A DNA stretch of 64,000 bases from Candidatus Eiseniibacteriota bacterium (GCA_041946735.1 JBHGAY010000001.1:128001-192000), one strand, 5' to 3'; shown: positions 17,001 to 23,000, counted from the first letter of the stretch. Made by a program: the numbers.

Positions 17001-20000
17001 GGCGCGTAGGGCGGTCGAGCTGTCGCGATCCGAGGAGAACCGGACGACCCTCGCTCTCGCGCTCGCGGAGTCGGGCGAGCCTGGCGAGGCGCGGGCGATC
17101 CTCTCGGGAATCGACGATCCCGATCTTCGATCGGAGATCGAAGCCGCCCTCAGCTCGCCTCGCTGACCCGTCGAACCGTCTCCGACCGGGTAACCGGCGG
17201 CGGACTCAAACGCGAGGAGCGAGGGAAGAGCCTCGCCCTCCCCTCGCTCCTCGCTTTCGAAGCGCTTTCGCCCGCCGCTTCGGCGGTCCTCTACCGGAAC
17301 AGCGACTTGAGCGCGCCCCAGGTCGACACCCGGGTGGCGGTCTCATTGCAGAACCAGAAGGAGTCCGCGCTCGTCCCGTTTGTCGTGCAGAGGTTCGAGA
17401 TGCCGTTGAACACGCCGCTCCACGTCGGCAGCGGCTGCGTCGGGTCGGCGACCCGTGTCATGCACTCCGCCTCGGTGGTAACGATGCACACCCGGTTCTC
17501 GCCAGAGCTGTAGCAGCAGGCGCTGCAGAGATCGCAGGAGCTGCCGTCGCCGAGATAGACGCCGGAAGAATCGGCGCACACGGTGTAGTCGACCACTTCG
17601 CAGCGAGCGTCGTCCTGGAAGCAGCAACCGCCGAGCAGCGGGGGCTCGGGGCAGTCGTTGGTGCCGGGGCCCTGCCACTCCACGCGCCCGAACTTGAAGA
17701 TCTGATCCTCGACGGGCGGCACGGACAGGTCCGCGACGAGTGCCTTGCCGATGCCGGGATAGACGCCCGTGCCGAAGTAGCTGCCCGGTCCTTGTCCGTA
17801 GGCTGCGAACCAGTAGAACGGAAAGATCGTGTCGGTCATCGGACTGGCGAAGCCGACCAGGTTGCCGGACGGGCTCGTGTCGGGCCAGCCCGCATCGGGA
17901 TTCTCGAGGACGCCGCAAGAGCTGTACTGCGGGACGTACCCCTGGCCGGGGGGAAGATTGTGGTCGACGCCGAACTGGAGGCCACCGACCTGGGGGTGGT
18001 GCTGCGGAGTGAACGCGCAGAGGAACCAGATCAAGGCGAGCTGATCGGCGGGCTTGTCCGTGCGCGTGTTCGCCGACGCGCAGTCGGCCGGCGCATGGGC
18101 CTGATAGTCGGCGCCGCAATAGGTTCCGGACGCGGTGAACGTGATGCTGTCGTCGGTGTGCACGATCAGCGCTCCGTTGTTGTTCCTTCCTGCCAGTGCG
18201 GGCCCGGATGCCGCGACCAGCATTGCGAGAGCTGCCAGCAGAATCCTTCTGGACATTTCGAAAGCCTCCTCCTCTCGGCGGGCGCCACGCCGCTCGTTCG
18301 GAGCACCGCCGCGCGTCCTCGGTCTCGATCCATGACGACCAAGACCGACGCTGTTCCCCTCACTCCCAGCGTCGGCAATCCTGAGGGGAAGTATCGAGGA
18401 CCCCGCGAGCGGGGCGCAACGGAAAAAGCCCGCGTAACGGCGAGCCTGCGGACCCACCGGACGGCCGGAAGCCTCTTCTGGCTCGGGCTATCGGTAGTTC
18501 GCCTTGACCCGCCCCCAGGTCGTCGACTCCGTGGCGACCGGCGGGCACACGACCCCCTCGCAGTTCGGTAGACCCATCCATTCGCCGCCCACGGCAACGC
18601 AGTCCGGCTCCATCATCTCCTCGCAGTCGCCTTCGATGCAGCACGCGCCTGTCTGCGGATCATCGTCTCAACGCCGGGCGGTTTGTTCGATTGCGTCACT
18701 GCCGTCACGCAGTCCGACGGGTTGTAGATGTCGCTGCAGAAGTCGGCTCCCGTCGGTGTGTAGTTCACCGCGTCGTTCGTGTGCACGATCATCGCCCCGC
18801 CCGCGTTCTTCCCCGCCAGCGCCGGAGTGGCAGCCAGGGGCAGAAAAGAGAGGGCGCCGAAGAGAGTGAGCAAGAAGGCAGGCGAGTAGCAGGAGAATCT
18901 CATCACGGCACCTCCGTGCGTGAGGAAGGAGATGAGAACTGGAAAGCGGTGGGCCCGCCCCAGGAGGGACGGGCCCACGCATCGTGACTAGCCGCTAGCT
19001 CTCGGGAAGAGAACTACCGGTAGTTGGCCTTGATCTGGCCCCAGGTGGTGGACTCGGTCGCGACCGGCGGCGGGCACTCGACACCCTCGCAGGTCTCCTG
19101 ATTCATCCACAGACCACCCTGAGCCGTGCAGTCGTCCTCGAGAATCACCGTGCACTCGCCAGCGATGCAGCAAGCACCCGGCGTCGGCGGAATCGGGCAC
19201 TCCGCCACGTCGCAGGTCGGCCACTCGGGGTGGAACGTCCCACCGTTGGCCTCGCACTGCTCGGCCGTGAGGACCTCGCAGCTACCGTCGTCGTAGCAGC
19301 AGGCAGCCGGCGGAGTCGGGCAGACGAACGTATCGCAGTTCGTGCCCTCGCCCTCAGGCGTGCCACCCGCAAGCGTGCAGTCCGCCGCCAGCAGGTTCTG
19401 GCAGGAGCCATCCTCGAAGCAGCAAGCCTGCGGCTGCTCGCAGGGGTTCGGGTCACAGGTCGTGCCCTCGCCCATGAAGTCGCCGGTGCAAGCGGTCTGC
19501 TCGAGAACCTCGCAAGTGCCGTCCGGATAGCAGCAAGCGCCCGTCACCGGAGCGGTCGGGCAGTCGTTGTATCCGGCCTCCATCCAGCGAACCTCGCCAA
19601 ACAGGAAGCAGAGATCCTCGACCGGCGGAACCGAGTCGTCGGCGAACTTTGCGAGTCCGTCGCCCGGGTACACGCCAGAGCCGAAGAAGCTGCCCGCGCC
19701 GTTCTGGTAGGCACCGAACCACGCGAACGTCTGGAAGTTGCCAGCGATCGGAGCCAAGCGACCGATCAGAGTTCCACCCGGGGTATCGGGGAAACCCTGA
19801 TCCGGCAGAACGAGAGCGTCCGTCGGGCAGGCGCTCCAGTGAGGAACGTAGCCCTGCCCCGGCGGCAGGTTGTGACGCACGCCGAACTGGACGCCGGCGA
19901 CGACCGCATCCGCTCCCTCGGGGAAAGCCGCGAGGAACCAAATGAGGGTCTCGGTAGCCGCGTCCTTGTCCGACCGGGTCACTGCAGAAGCACAGTCGGC

Positions 20001-23000
20001 CGGCTTGTACTGATCCTGGCAGAAGTCCAGGTTCGTGTAGTTCACGGCGTCGTTCGTGTGAACGATCATCGCGCCGCCTGCGTTCTTTCCTGCCAGTGCC
20101 GGGCTACAGATCAGGGCCAAGATGCCCAGCGCCAGTAGAAGTTTCTTCATCGCGTTTCGACCTCCCTAGGGTTGTCACGAAATCGAAGTACTCGGAACTC
20201 CCAGCTCGCGCGTTTTGCCGGGAGTCGACTCGAGACGGCGCCTGCCGTCTCGCACCACCTCCACCCCACCCCGAACCCGCTCACCTCGCAACCCGGGCCC
20301 GGCGAAACCCGGATCGCCACACGTCCTGCGTCAGGGCGTGCAGTCGCGGGTCGTCGAAAGCCAGGACTGACCGAAGACCGTGAAGTCGGTCAGGGTCATC
20401 AGTCCATCATTGTTGTAGTCGTGGCAGCTCGGGTTGTTGGGGTTGCCGAACGCCGCGGAAAGAGCCGTGAAGTCCGCGAGGGTGATCGACAAGCTCCAGA
20501 GACCGGGAAGACCGGCGTTGTCCGATCCACCGTAGTCCGGGCTGACCGCCGCGTTGAAGTTGCGGATCTCGACGCCGTTCGCACGGATGACGATCGCGTT
20601 CGGGCCCTTGTAGCAACCACCGCCGCCCAGGTTGATCGTGGCCTGGCCAGCGACGTTGGTCGTATAGGACGTCGTCTCCGACGCGCACAGCTTGGTCTTG
20701 TTGTCGGCGATGCCGCCGATCAAGATCTCGACGATCGCGTTGTTGATCGGATTGTTCGCGGCGTTCTTCACCGTGACGGTGAAGGTCGCCTGGCTGACCG
20801 GCGACGTCCCGTTCTCATCGGGGATGAGAAGAACGCGCTGCGGTCCGTCGAGGCTCGTCGAGCAGTTCGAAGGATCGGGTACGTCTGCGTTGGCCACCGT
20901 AGCGACCAGTGCAAGCGCACAGAAGGCGAAGAACAACCTCTTCATTCGTTTGACCTCCACGAAGTCAGTTGACCAGCTAGCCTACAAAGATCGTTGCTTG
21001 GTCGGAACAGGAAGCACCCTCGTGCGCGGGCCCCGAAGGGCTTCAGCAGGCGGATTCGTAGTTGCCGCACCTCCTTCTGAAGCATGCTCCGCTGTTAGGC
21101 TTGCACGGGAATAGTGTACCGCCCACCCCAGAGTCGGTCAAGCCGCAGTTTTTTCCTAACGACTCCGAGATCGTCGGTTACGAGGAAGGTCGTTCGCTCC
21201 TCCCCCCTGATACACTCCCGTGCCCGCCGTCCGACGAGGCGCCGCCCCCTCCGGCAGATCGGGGGCGATCGATCCTTGCGGCCGGTCCCTTCTTCGTTCG
21301 GCATGGGAGGCGAGGATCCCCAGCAAAACCCTGAAACGGCGCAAGCAGGATTCCTGCAAGACGATGGGGTGGCAGGCGGGGGGAGATCGAGGAGGCCGCC
21401 ACGAGGCGGGCCGTAGGAGGACGGGCGGCTCGAACACGGCCAGGGGGCAGCGCGGCTGGTGGGCGAGACAGGGGTCGAACCTGTGACCTCCTGCTTGTAA
21501 GGCAGGCGCTCTACCGTTGAGCTACTCGCCCATTATGTTCAATCGTTCGTCCCGGGCGAGCTTGTACGTCCCCCCGTGGCTCCGCGGCCGGATCGATCCC
21601 CTCGGGCGACGATCCCCCAGGGAATGAGGACGATGTAGCCTCCGACCAGGAGCAGAGGGGCGAAGGTGATGTCTCCGAGCGCGAGAAGGACGAAGCCGAT
21701 CAGGATGGCCGCTCCGCCGGCTCCGAGCAGAAGGAAGTTCTTGCGCGACCAGTCGAGATGGCTCTCCTCGCCGGTCTCCGGCGCCGCGCGGCGCGGGGCC
21801 TCCGCCGGGGGCTTGCGAATCCCCCGTCCCGCCTGCGTCCCTGCCTTGCGACCCCTGCTCGTGGACATTGCCGTAGCTCCTTTCTTCCCTTCGTCTCCCG
21901 GCGGCCGCATCCGCGCCCCGATGCCCGGCGCGCGGGAGCGATCGTCGTCGCCGGGTCAGTCCCCGCTCGCTCCGGCCGGATCCCCCTTCGACAGGCGCTC
22001 GCAGGGAGCGCGGTCGCAGGAACTGCCGTCCCCCGCCCAGGTCCCTCCCTCGCGCACGCAGTCGCGCTGCTGGACCATCCGGCAGGAACCGTCGGGCAGG
22101 CAGCAGGCCGCGACGGGAGCGCGGATCGTGCAGATGCGCGAGGTGCAGAAAGAGCCTTCCCCGAGGAACTCCGCGCCCTGGTAATAGCCCGCCTGAGTCC
22201 GAGTGAGCATGACGCAGAGCGAATCCTGGACGCAGGTTGCGCCCATCTCCGGTCCGGGGAAGATCGGGGCCGGGGCGTTGCCCGGGCGGCCGAAGCCGAT
22301 CGCGCCGAAGCCTGCGAGCGAGGTCTCGACCGGCTCCGCCGTGCTGATCTTCCCGCCGAAGCGGGGATCGGGATGCGGGATCAGCTCCAGGGTCCCTTCC
22401 TTGGCCGCCTGCACGGCGAGCCATCCCAGCTCGACCACGCGCGAGGTGTCGGGATGGGTCGTGAAGCCTAGGAGGATCCCTTCGTCGCTCGCAGGCCAAT
22501 CGCTGGTCGGCAGCTCGAGGCATTCCCTGCAGCGTCCCGTGCGCAGGACTTTGACCCCTTCGCTATAGCGGATGCCGAAGCATGCGCCGGCCAGCTCGGG
22601 CTTCGCGCTGTCCGGGAAGGCGGCCAGGATGTAGACGACGCGCGGCTGCGAAGAGGGGGAGATCGTGACGATGGCCTGCTCGGGGGACGGGGTGGCGGAG
22701 AGGCCGGTGTACTTGCCAGCCGGGTCGTAGGGAATCTCCGGGGCGAGGGACAGATAGAGGACGGCGCCCGAATTGTCGCCGACCGCACGCGCCTGCTGCG
22801 CGAAACCCAGCCCGAGCACTCCGGCCGCGAACAGGACGGCCGCGCTCCAGCGCCGCGCTCGACCCCTCTTCATCGCTCCATCCTCATTGCTCACTCCTCA
22901 TGGCTCATTCCTCATCGCTCACTCACTCCTCCTGGCGGCGCGGATCTCGCGTCGCGCCCGCTCGTGTTCCGCCAGCGTCCTGGAGAAGTGGTGCTCTCCA

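What a model noticed while it worked through the whole genome (the two positions that open the first line are those of the whole stretch)
19014..20150. A conserved 17-residue C-terminal tag (P-V/T-A-T/V-E-x-T/S-T/S-W-G-x-V/I-K/R-x-L-Y/F-R-COOH) on 74 secreted proteins
74 proteins of this genome, with unrelated passenger domains (beta-helix, CHRD, cupredoxin, PPC, DUF4082, a 27-member Cys-rich repeat family, mostly unknown), end in the same short motif ...P[VT]A[TV]Exx[TS]WGx[VIL][KR]xx[YF]R directly followed by the stop codon; example g00118. I read it as an undescribed C-terminal sorting or anchoring signal of diderm FCB-group bacteria, read by a dedicated export or attachment machine (perhaps one of the eight PorV-like barrels). 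If true it is a new protein-targeting signal that defines a whole surface proteome and gives a portable tag for surface display.
Evidence so far: Regex over all 3831 proteins: 75 hits, 74 after dropping one membrane transporter; W 74/74, G 73, last-place R 70, A at -6 57, P at -8 52; 68 of 74 end right after [YF]R. Independent blast clustering of the last 32 residues of all proteins gives a 78-member cluster holding 69 of the 74. Sizes 41-718 aa, N-terminal signal-like segments; only 1 of 74 has any NCBIfam row, none covers the tag. 0 of 74 carry the T9SS CTD. A 54-nt back-translated pattern (tag + stop): 25 matches in this genome vs 0 for the reversed pattern; in the one-genome-per-species collection it hit the row limit with 106 stretches (my chance estimate about 0.3) in Eisenbacteria, Krumholzibacteriia, Latescibacteria, Fibrobact [...]
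(Added by a program. Inside this text positions count along the whole contig: contig position 128,001 is position 1 of the stretch shown here. "Call 12" and the like, gene names such as g00115 and contig names such as C1 are that model's own, and its searches are not shown. The text may have been shortened before it was handed on; [...] marks where a part breaks off. The agent that wrote the report below was given it as the finding of a first reader that could run no searches.)

Follow-up and report, generated by a model that had tools for sequence, protein, structure and literature searches.

The report
Short C-terminal TWG sorting tag
About seventy exported proteins of this uncultured Eisenbacteria genome end in the same short peptide (...[ST]-W-G-x-[VI]-[KR]-x-x-[YF]-R, then stop), an undescribed address-label-like tag that sits where related proteins carry the type IX secretion domain; it also ends one small conserved protein in cultured Ignavibacteria, where its unknown reader could now be sought.

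Summary
In this genome, 68 of 71 strict motif occurrences lie directly before a stop, and the reversed motif occurs 0 times. A 20-residue profile gives 77 C-terminal against 2 near-terminal hits at 20 bits or more. Of 67 carriers of 100 aa or more, 62 have a signal-peptide-like N-terminus. No Pfam or NCBIfam model covered the tail in the 22 of 73 carriers I scanned.

The tail and the T9SS C-terminal domain (CTD) never occur together: 0 of 257. They alternate on homologous passengers in 20 of 67 carriers.

The motif is in 192 of 206 Eisenbacteria genomes. New here: cultured Ignavibacteria (Rosettibacter, Stygiobacter) and a Calditrichota MAG have exactly one carrier, a ~130-aa FN3 protein ending VKRTWGSIKALFR. 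AlphaFold2 shows the tail as a detached, low-confidence short helix.

I found no conserved neighbour. Tail-free genomes keep SprA, and their PorV-family counts show no clean pattern. The complex prediction could not be run.

This scan found the same tag at least nine times before on other DNA.

Verdict: a probable new short sorting or docking tag whose mechanism is inferred.

The parts
19014..20150 (-). Example gene. 378-aa exported protein: signal peptide, beta-rich N-terminal domain, four Cys-rich modules, TWG tail.
   Evidence: ORF and translation. The AF2 model has mean pLDDT 93: beta domain about residues 27-190, four hairpin-plus-helix Cys modules, tail 361-378 at pLDDT 58-66. 177 homologues, all 'hypothetical'; one carries FlgD_ig instead of the tail.
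19017..19067 (-). The 17 codons of the tail (PVATESTTWGQIKANYR), followed by the stop at 19014-19016.
   Evidence: Predicted short helix at residues 369-377 with low confidence.
20091..20150 (-). Predicted Sec signal peptide (MKKLLLALGILALICSPALA, then GKN).
   Evidence: Read from the sequence. Hydrophobic-segment heuristic. The cleavage site is inferred, not computed by a dedicated predictor.
17291..18256 (-). Tandem paralogue (321 aa from the ATG at 18256) ending ETATRVSTWGALKSLFR-stop. Tail codons are 17294-17344.
18488..18978 (-). Remnant of a third paralogue between the two. It is internally deleted by about 790 nt and frameshifted. Its last piece still ends PPVATESTTWGRVKANYR-stop (18488-18616).
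   Evidence: blastn against the intact gene matches nt 49-185 and 973-1137 only, and the two pieces lie in different frames.

Best explanation
The tail is a portable recognition peptide on proteins that Sec has already exported.

Proposed sequence of events:
1. The passenger folds in the periplasm. Many passengers are Cys-rich.
2. A flexible linker (P-[VT]-A-[TV]-E-x) presents a 9-10 residue amphipathic segment, [ST]-W-G-x-[VIL]-[KR]-x-[LMT]-[YF]-R, with a free Arg carboxyl end.
3. A conserved envelope protein binds this end and takes or holds the cargo at its destination.

I think the most likely reader is an outer-membrane component that works with the type IX secretion system, namely a member of the PorV/PorP (FadL-fold) shuttle or anchor family. 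On that reading the tail is a cheap alternative to the ~90-residue CTD for small cargo.

Shown here: the tail exists, is strictly terminal, is under peptide-level selection, sits on exported proteins of unrelated folds, alternates with the CTD, and occurs across several phyla.

For: Position:
- 68 of 71 strict occurrences lie at the stop, and 77 against 2 by HMM.
- W, G and the final R are invariant in 73 of 73.

Conservation:
- In the Ignavibacteria protein the tail is the best-conserved part. W122, G123, I125, K126 and F129 are invariant across 53 sequences whose mean column identity is 55%.
- Nothing is conserved after the stop.

Carriers:
- 62 of 67 have a signal-like N-terminus.
- Passengers are unrelated: Beta_helix, PPC, CHRD, cupredoxin, LTD, DUF4082, DUF7901/choice-of-anchor R, spondin.
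- Their median Cys content is 3.0%, against 0.8% genome-wide.

Relation to the CTD:
- 20 of 67 carriers have CTD-bearing paralogues. Several alignments run to the very end of the passenger. An example is the cupredoxin: query 26-111 of 111 aligns to subject 109-196 of 301.
- A CBM96-tail protein sits next to a CBM96-multicopper oxidase-FlgD_ig protein in two genomes of a low-tail family of this phylum, f18.
- The FN3 domain of the Ignavibacteria carrier matches FN3-like domains that sit directly before CTDs in this genome.

T9SS context:
- The genome has SprA and at least 147 TIGR04183 matches, or 257 CTDs by my own profile.
- Both CTDs and tails end in a basic residue. R is last in 157 of 257 CTDs and in 73 of 73 tails.

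Literature (passages read):
- In F. johnsoniae, PorP/SprF-family shuttles serve type B CTDs, and one shuttle serves three unlinked 'orphan' substrates (PMC12618676).
- Prevotella intermedia has 40-51-residue CTDs. That paper cites work showing that the last 22 residues of the Hbp35 CTD were the part absolutely required (PMC11969387).
Against: - No localisation, cleavage or binding data exist.
- hhalign finds no similarity between the tail and the last 24 residues of 157 CTDs beyond the terminal R (probability 0.15).
- The abstract of PMC11285876 (search listing only) says the whole 3+4 beta-sandwich architecture of the CTD is essential.
- Five tail-free Eisenbacteria genomes all keep SprA.
- PorV-family counts overlap: 3, 6, 4, 7, 6, 6 in tail-free genomes against 5, 6, 5, 7, 7, 6, 7, 9, 7 in tail-bearing ones.
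- No gene family is clearly enriched next to the 73 tagged genes of this genome (best case 5 seen against 1.2 expected).
- No machine gene lies beside the 3-4 tagged genes of five low-tail f18 genomes.
- No machine gene lies beside the single carrier in Ignavibacteria, Kapaibacteria or Calditrichota.
- The tail does not precede a CTD in Eisenbacteria: 0 real cases in 206 genomes.
Confidence: 0.45

Rival explanations
1. A protein reads the tail, but that protein has nothing to do with T9SS. Examples would be a periplasmic or outer-membrane binder of C-terminal peptides (TPR, PDZ or beta-augmentation type) that retains or scaffolds the carriers in the periplasm, at the wall or on a surface scaffold, in the manner of cohesin and dockerin.
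For: - The strictly free C-terminus and invariant W, G and R fit binders of C-terminal peptides.
- Beta-strand periodicity of the last 10 residues is strong: hydrophobic moment 0.64-0.67 at 170-180 degrees, z about 11 against shuffles.
- The single Ignavibacteria carrier lies among envelope and wall genes (SpoIID, SLT, SPOR/YfiO-like, DUF4159-DUF4175, patatin-POTRA-Omp85) in different lineages.
- Tail-free genomes keep T9SS.
- One carrier is a cupredoxin, a fold usually found in periplasmic proteins (the usual location is from general knowledge).
Against: - Homologous passengers carry a T9SS CTD instead of the tail. A shared destination is therefore more economical.
- No candidate receptor emerged from any neighbourhood.
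Confidence: 0.25
2. There is no protein reader. The tail is a short in-plane amphipathic membrane anchor, like the C-terminal membrane-targeting helices of MinD, FtsA or PBP5 (comparison recalled, not tested). It would tether exported proteins to a leaflet of the inner or outer membrane or to LPS.
For: - AF2 draws the tail as a short helix detached from the fold in both models: residues 122-128 of the FN3 protein and 369-377 of the window protein.
- It holds W, [VIL], [LM] and [YF] together with two basic residues.
- The helical hydrophobic moment is above shuffles (0.46, z 3.2).
- This would explain why no reader gene is found.
Against: - The helix has low confidence (pLDDT 58-68).
- The beta periodicity is much stronger than the helical one.
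- The summed Wimley-White interfacial energy of the last 9 residues is only -0.78 kcal/mol on average.
- Near-identical sequence is kept from Ignavibacteria to Eisenbacteria, with invariant G, a fixed distance to the end and a conserved upstream [ST][ST]. That is more than lipid binding usually demands.
Confidence: 0.15
3. The tail is a processing or turnover tag. A C-terminal processing or tail-specific protease, or a quality-control factor, would recognise it, so it controls maturation or half-life rather than location.
For: The position is strictly terminal with a free carboxylate. Such proteases read C-termini (general knowledge, not tested here).
Against: - A degradation tag on about 2% of the proteome, kept across phyla on unrelated stable folds and on a single conserved protein in Ignavibacteria, is hard to rationalise.
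- No protease gene is linked. One Propeptide_C25 protein lies three genes away from a tagged gene in one low-tail f18 locus only.
Confidence: 0.07
4. It is not a signal. The tail would be the inherited end of one protein family, or a chance or compositional motif.
For: - Some carriers are paralogues: 23 of 73 share the Cys-rich repeat, and there are 11 adjacent gene pairs.
- The TAG stop is over-represented after the tail (45 of 73 against 36% genome-wide), which hints at common descent of some tails.
Against: - The passengers belong to at least eight unrelated Pfam families. For 47 of the 67 queries the only hits were other tail carriers or untagged stretches.
- The reversed motif occurs 0 times, and the backwards DNA control gave 4 matches in 206 genomes.
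Confidence: 0.03

Closest known systems
T9SS type A C-terminal domain (TIGR04183 / PF18962; FlgD_ig-like PF13860 form in these genomes), including the 40-51-residue 'short CTDs' of Prevotella intermedia
   Same: - Sits at the extreme C-terminus of Sec-exported proteins in FCB-type bacteria.
- Interchangeable with the tail on homologous passengers.
- Ends in a basic residue.
- The genome has the T9SS.
   Different: - About 17 residues instead of 40-100, so it cannot form a beta-sandwich.
- No HMM or profile similarity.
- Sits on much smaller proteins (median 250 against 775 aa).
- Whether T9SS is used at all is unknown.
Tripartite C-terminal sorting signals (LPXTG/sortase, PEP-CTERM/exosortase, GlyGly-CTERM/rhombosortase, MYXO-CTERM/myxosortase)
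   Same: - Many copies per genome.
- C-terminal position.
- A short, nearly invariant signature.
- N-terminal signal peptides.
- Found on 'choice-of-anchor' type passengers (spondin, choice-of-anchor R, CHRD, LTD).
   Different: - No hydrophobic transmembrane segment and no Arg cluster. These are criteria 4 and 5 in Haft's list (10.1101/2023.06.07.544157, passages read).
- No cognate intramembrane protease was identified.
C-terminal beta-signal of outer-membrane beta-barrel proteins (read by BAM)
   Same: A short, strictly C-terminal, strand-like amphipathic peptide with an aromatic residue near the end.
   Different: - This genome's own barrel-like proteins end in an aromatic residue, for example ...FRF or ...FSF. 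The tail ends in R after the aromatic.
- The passengers are soluble folds, not barrels.
Dockerin-cohesin type docking modules
   Same: One conserved C-terminal module on many unrelated secreted proteins. Scaffold docking would need no linked 'machine' gene.
   Different: - A dockerin is a ~70-residue folded Ca-binding module (recalled).
- No receptor module has been identified here.

Membership tests
Tripartite C-terminal sorting signals (PEP-CTERM, LPXTG, GlyGly-CTERM, MYXO-CTERM ...) | Homology domain at the extreme C-terminus, with many occurrences in one genome | tested here: met
   68 of 71 strict occurrences lie at the stop, with 73-77 carriers.
Tripartite C-terminal sorting signals (PEP-CTERM, LPXTG, GlyGly-CTERM, MYXO-CTERM ...) | [quoted passage not shown] | tested here: met
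   W, G and the final R are each present in 73 of 73.
Tripartite C-terminal sorting signals (PEP-CTERM, LPXTG, GlyGly-CTERM, MYXO-CTERM ...) | Hydrophobic segment long enough for a transmembrane helix after the motif | tested here: not met
   Only 8 residues follow the W, two of them basic. The criterion was taken from passages of 10.1101/2023.06.07.544157.
Tripartite C-terminal sorting signals (PEP-CTERM, LPXTG, GlyGly-CTERM, MYXO-CTERM ...) | Cluster of two to five basic residues at the end | tested here: not met
   A single terminal R plus one K/R four residues earlier.
Tripartite C-terminal sorting signals (PEP-CTERM, LPXTG, GlyGly-CTERM, MYXO-CTERM ...) | Co-occurring dedicated sorting enzyme (sortase, exosortase, rhombosortase, myxosortase) | not tested
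   No search for these enzyme families was run. No recurrent neighbour gene was found.
T9SS type A CTD | Match to TIGR04183 / PF18962 / PF13860 | tested here: not met
   No such row for the 22 of 73 carriers scanned. 0 of 257 CTD-bearing stretches end in the tail.
T9SS type A CTD | Folded beta-sandwich or beta-sheet of 40-100 residues | tested here: not met
   The conserved part is about 17 residues. AF2 shows a detached short helix of low confidence.
T9SS type A CTD | Sequence relationship to the last strands (motifs D and E) of the CTD | tested here: not met
   hhalign of the tail profile against the last 24 residues of 157 CTDs aligns only the terminal R, probability 0.15.
T9SS type A CTD | T9SS present in the same genome | tested here: met
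   SprA at 356 + 128 bits (492 bits summed over the frame) and at least 147 CTD matches. Five tail-free genomes also keep SprA.
T9SS type A CTD | Secretion depends on T9SS and on binding to PorV | not testable with these tools
   The complex prediction (PorV plus FN3-tail protein) was never accepted by the tool. This needs experiment.
OMP beta-signal | Terminal aromatic residue on a beta-barrel protein | tested here: not met
   The tail ends [YF]-R. Barrel-like proteins of this genome end in F, W or Y. The modelled passengers are soluble folds.
In-plane amphipathic membrane-targeting helix | Helical amphipathicity and favourable interfacial partitioning | tested here: inconclusive
   Helical moment 0.46 (z 3.2) against beta moment 0.64-0.67 (z 11). 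Mean Wimley-White sum -0.78 kcal/mol. AF2 helix pLDDT 58-68.

The most novel reading that the evidence does not exclude
A third class of type IX secretion or anchoring signal. A linear peptide of 10-17 residues with a free Arg end would be enough for a PorV/PorP-family shuttle to take small folded proteins across the outer membrane or hold them on it. This would give a minimal portable surface-display tag. The single conserved FN3-tail protein of Ignavibacteria and Calditrichota would be its ancestral client.
Probability: 0.2. Interest if true: 0.85.

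Novelty: new variant of a known kind. Interest (0 to 1): 0.68.

Why it matters
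Known C-terminal sorting signals of bacteria are of two kinds. One is tripartite, with a membrane helix cut by an intramembrane enzyme. The other is a folded ~40-100-residue T9SS domain. A strictly terminal peptide of ~10-17 residues with neither feature would be a different way of addressing exported proteins.

The tail marks about 2% of the proteome in Eisenbacteria. It also occurs in Latescibacterota, Krumholzibacteriota, Cloacimonadota, Calditrichota and Ignavibacteria.

The new practical point is that cultured Ignavibacteria carry exactly one client. The question 'what reads the tail' therefore becomes a bench experiment: fractionation, C-terminal mass spectrometry and peptide pull-down.

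If the tail is sufficient on its own, it would be a very small tag for surface display or retention.

Tried and rejected
- **Neighbour enrichment in this genome.** I took ±3 genes around the 73 tagged genes, using 3,360 crude gene calls. The best family was seen 5 times against 1.2-2.2 expected. Nothing convincing.
- **Reader next to the substrate in genomes with few tails.** Five low-tail f18 genomes with 3-4 tails gave 13 loci. The neighbours were small lipoproteins, unknown secreted proteins and housekeeping genes, with no machine.
- **Ignavibacteria synteny.** The order MatE - carrier - (SpoIID) - Maf - LPG_synthase_TM - YtxH - DUF948 - EF-G - HIT is conserved within Ignavibacteriales. It is not kept in Kapaibacteria or Calditrichota, so it reflects relatedness, not function.
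There were 0 real cases in 206 Eisenbacteria genomes. The single pattern match contains the stop codon. None in this genome either. I did not test Poribacteria.
- **Tail as a truncated CTD.** Rejected at the sequence level.
- **PorV-family copy number against tail presence.** No clean pattern.
- **SprA loss in tail-free genomes.** Not lost.
- **Fold searches.** The FN3 protein is a generic FN3. The window protein has no match at E<=0.001, only weak cohesin-like or reeler sandwich rows at E about 0.01.
- **ESM Atlas.** Only 'hypothetical protein' clusters from Ignavibacteriota.
- **My eyeballed resemblance** between the window's 20331-20960 protein and the f18 neighbour family. Rejected, BLASTP E 1.4.
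- **Complex prediction.** I first sent a homotrimer of the FN3-tail protein, then PorV plus the FN3-tail protein. It was never accepted, because the queue was full or the machine gave no answer. No result of any kind exists.
- **Literature.** Five searches found no description of this tail. A motif cannot be searched as such, so publication under another name is not excluded. No supplementary files were opened.

Full report
**The thing itself**

Window 19014..20150 (-) encodes a 378-aa protein. It has a typical Sec signal (MKKLLLALGILALICSPALA, then GKN) and ends PPPVATESTTWGQIKANYR-stop. Directly downstream on the same strand lie two more copies of the family:
- a remnant at 18488-18978 that is internally deleted by about 790 nt and frameshifted, yet still ends ...TTWGRVKANYR-stop;
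- an intact paralogue at 17291-18256 ending ...STWGALKSLFR-stop.

The window is G000:C1:128001-192000 of a 4.89-Mb, 72-contig, 68% GC genome. It is 94.8% complete.

Yes. I examined 54,109 six-frame stop-to-stop stretches of 40 aa or more. The strict motif [TS]WG.[VIL][KR]..[YF]R occurs 71 times, 68 of them immediately before a stop. The reversed motif occurs 0 times.

A 20-residue HMM built from 71 tails was run with filters off over all stretches. At 20 bits or more it gives 77 C-terminal hits and 2 internal ones. One internal hit lies 4 residues from the end. The other lies in a 53-aa stretch.

Anchored on W (n=73), the counts are: W 73, G 73, [VILM] 73, [KR] 73, [YFW] 73, final R 73, [ST] before W 71, A at -6 58, P at -8 53. 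The protein ends right after R in 71 of 73.

DNA information content falls to zero right after the stop, and third codon positions are weakly conserved. Selection is therefore on the peptide.

**Who carries it?**

My gene calls are crude (GC3-based, no gene finder) and the signal test is a hydrophobicity heuristic. With those limits:
- 62 of the 67 carriers of 100 aa or more have a signal-like N-terminus, and 1 has a lipobox;
- median length is 250 aa;
- median Cys content is 3.0% against 0.8% for other genes;
- the genes lie on 35 of 72 contigs, with 11 adjacent pairs.

I scanned 22 of the 73 carriers. Pfam found Beta_helix/NosD, PPC, CHRD, cupredoxin, LTD, DUF7901, DUF4082 and Spond_N. NCBIfam found the spondin domain over its cut-off and choice-of-anchor R below its cut-off. 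No model covered the tail.

By regex, 23 of 73 carriers have the Cys-rich repeat, and 8 have the GKN..IVHT N-terminal domain of the window protein.

AlphaFold2 with 49 homologues models the window protein at pLDDT 93. It shows a beta-rich domain, four Cys-rich hairpin-helix modules, and a tail (residues 361-378) at pLDDT 58-66 drawn as a detached helix at 369-377. Foldseek finds no PDB match at E<=0.001. The family has 177 database homologues, all 'hypothetical'. One of them carries FlgD_ig instead of the tail.

**Relation to type IX secretion**

The genome has SprA, at least 147 TIGR04183 matches and at least 150 FlgD_ig matches. My own iterated profile finds 257 CTD-bearing stretches with a median of 775 aa.

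The two C-terminal modules never coincide: 0 of 257. They do alternate. 20 of 67 carriers have CTD-bearing paralogues, and several alignments run to the last residue of the passenger, after which one protein has 18 residues of tail and the other about 100 residues of CTD.

Both modules end in a basic residue. R is last in 157 of 257 CTDs. However, profile comparison of the tail with the last 24 CTD residues aligns only that R. In 206 Eisenbacteria genomes the tail is never followed by a CTD start within 8-18 residues. The one pattern match includes the stop.

**Distribution**

A 33-nt pattern (tail core plus stop) matches in 192 of 206 genomes of the phylum. This count includes the unpublished G072; without it the figure is 191 of 205. 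The pattern read backwards matched 4 times in all 206 genomes.
- This genome has 67 matches, and its family has 22-97 per genome.
- Family f18 (41 genomes) has only 0-4 per genome. In genus g80, 8 of 10 genomes have none.
- G020, G053 and G055 also have none, although their sister genomes have 5-43.

An orthologous LTD-tail protein is shared between this genome and f18 (48% identity over 181 residues including the tail, E 7e-54).

**Outside the phylum**

DNA was fetched for 80 of them.
- 63 of the fetched loci carry one family. It is a ~130-aa protein made of a signal peptide, an FN3 domain and ...VSSVKRTWGSIKALFR-stop. The records are labelled Ignavibacteria, Melioribacteraceae, Kapaibacterium, Chlorobiota, Calditrichota and others. 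They include the cultured Rosettibacter primus and Stygiobacter electus.
- Other loci are labelled Krumholzibacteriota, Latescibacterota, Cloacimonadota and Gemmatimonadota and carry unrelated passengers.
- Four loci are chance matches with open frames under 10 aa.
- No Fibrobacterota record was among those I saw.

The generic pattern finds exactly one match in each of Rosettibacter, Stygiobacter, a Calditrichota MAG and a Gemmatimonadota-labelled MAG. It finds 11 in a Latescibacterota MAG. In an even sample of 151 genomes from Rosettibacter's phylum, 35 have a match. 33 of the 37 listed places encode WG[SM]IK[AE][LM]FR.

The FN3 family has 408 homologues, all 'hypothetical', with no Pfam domain. 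In an alignment of 53 sequences the tail is the most conserved part. AF2 (pLDDT 81) shows an FN3 sandwich at 21-112, a linker, and a short helix at 122-128 with pLDDT about 67. Foldseek sees a generic FN3. An HMM of this family hits FN3-like domains that sit directly before CTDs in this genome's T9SS cargo.

Every approach came back negative or inconclusive.
- No gene family is clearly enriched around the 73 tagged genes.
- In five low-tail f18 genomes with 3-4 tails, the neighbours are small lipoproteins, unknown secreted proteins and housekeeping genes. One CBM96-tail gene sits beside a CBM96-multicopper oxidase-CTD gene.
- The synteny around the Ignavibacteria carrier is conserved only within Ignavibacteriales. 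Elsewhere the neighbours are various envelope and wall genes.
- Five tail-free genomes all keep SprA.
- PorV-family matches at E<=1e-20 number 3, 6, 4, 7, 6, 6 in six tail-free genomes and 5, 6, 5, 7, 7, 6, 7, 9, 7 in nine tail-bearing ones. This genome has 9 over the cut-off and Rosettibacter has 15.
- I prepared a PorV alignment to test PorV against the FN3-tail protein, but the complex predictor never accepted a job.

**Physical character of the tail**

The last ten residues have a much stronger beta-strand than helical hydrophobic moment: 0.64-0.67 with z about 11, against 0.46 with z 3.2. Predicted interfacial partitioning is weak at -0.78 kcal/mol.

The genome's own barrel-like proteins end in an aromatic residue such as ...FRF, so the tail is not a canonical beta-signal.

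**Reading**

The tail behaves as a portable C-terminal recognition peptide on exported proteins and as a functional alternative to the T9SS CTD. I judge a protein reader most likely, because of the extreme sequence conservation across phyla, the fixed distance to a free Arg end, and the strand-like periodicity. I judge an outer-membrane partner linked to T9SS the most likely reader.

This is inference. It rests on the alternation with CTDs and on published evidence for families of specialised PorV/PorP shuttles that serve unlinked substrates (PMC12618676, passages) and for very short CTDs (PMC11969387, passages).

Against it stand the lack of any sequence relation to the CTD and the abstract of PMC11285876, which says the full sandwich is essential (listing only).

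The rivals are a non-T9SS peptide binder, a lipid-binding in-plane anchor, and a processing tag.

**Known or new?**

The tail fails the transmembrane-helix and Arg-cluster criteria of tripartite sorting signals (criteria read in passages of 10.1101/2023.06.07.544157). It fails every test for the T9SS CTD except co-occurrence with the system. Five literature searches found no description.

The scan itself has reported this tail at least nine times on other DNA, once in this same genome.

- the single-copy FN3-tail protein in cultured Ignavibacteria;
- the quantified alternation with CTDs;
- the negative test for a tail-before-CTD arrangement in Eisenbacteria;
- the set of matched tail-free and tail-bearing genomes for profiling.

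Noticed in passing
window 18458-19013 (-): Between the two intact tagged paralogues lies a remnant of a third. It matches nt 49-185 and 973-1137 of the 19014-20150 gene only, with the two pieces in different frames (about 790 nt deleted). Its last piece still encodes the tail and a stop.
   Followed up: yes
L056:8001-8393 (-) (Rosettibacter primus), L091:8001-8393 (-) (Stygiobacter electus) and 61 further loci of L050-L129: A single-copy, ~130-aa family made of a signal peptide, an FN3 domain and VKRTWGSIKALFR. It is conserved across Ignavibacteria, Kapaibacteria and Calditrichota-labelled genomes, and every source calls it 'hypothetical'. The tail is its most conserved part.
   Followed up: yes
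genome-wide (73 tail genes of G000): The stop codon after the tail is TAG in 45 of 73, against 36% of 2,980 other genes (Fisher p 2e-5). The carriers are partly paralogous, so the test overstates. It may mean that tails spread together with their stop codon.
   Followed up: partly
L013 (G000:C12:58068-58691, -) and L039:9991-10674 (-): An LTD (lamin tail domain)-tail protein is orthologous between distant families of the phylum (48% identity, E 7e-54). It is one of only about four tail-bearing families kept in the low-tail family f18.
   Followed up: partly
L040:7885-12019 and L042:2960-7137: A small CBM96-tail protein is encoded directly next to a 1,130-aa CBM96-multicopper oxidase-FlgD_ig (T9SS CTD) protein in two f18 genomes. 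The same domain appears once with each kind of C-terminus.
   Followed up: partly
L038_13, L040_01, L041_00/01/03 (f18 loci): A family of ~270-aa lipoproteins (lipobox ...GC[GNS][DGN]D) with no Pfam match lies beside tail genes in three f18 genomes. It has no homologue in G000 at E<=1e-3.
   Followed up: partly
window 20331-20960 (-): A 209-aa exported protein lies directly upstream of the tagged gene (signal peptide, then ADVPDPSNCS...). It has no tail. I did not scan it against family libraries. It is not similar to the f18 neighbour family (E 1.4).
   Followed up: partly
G000 genome-wide: FN3-like domains resembling the Ignavibacteria FN3-tail protein sit immediately before the CTD in several large T9SS cargo proteins, for example stretches on C56, C22 and C18.
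   Followed up: no
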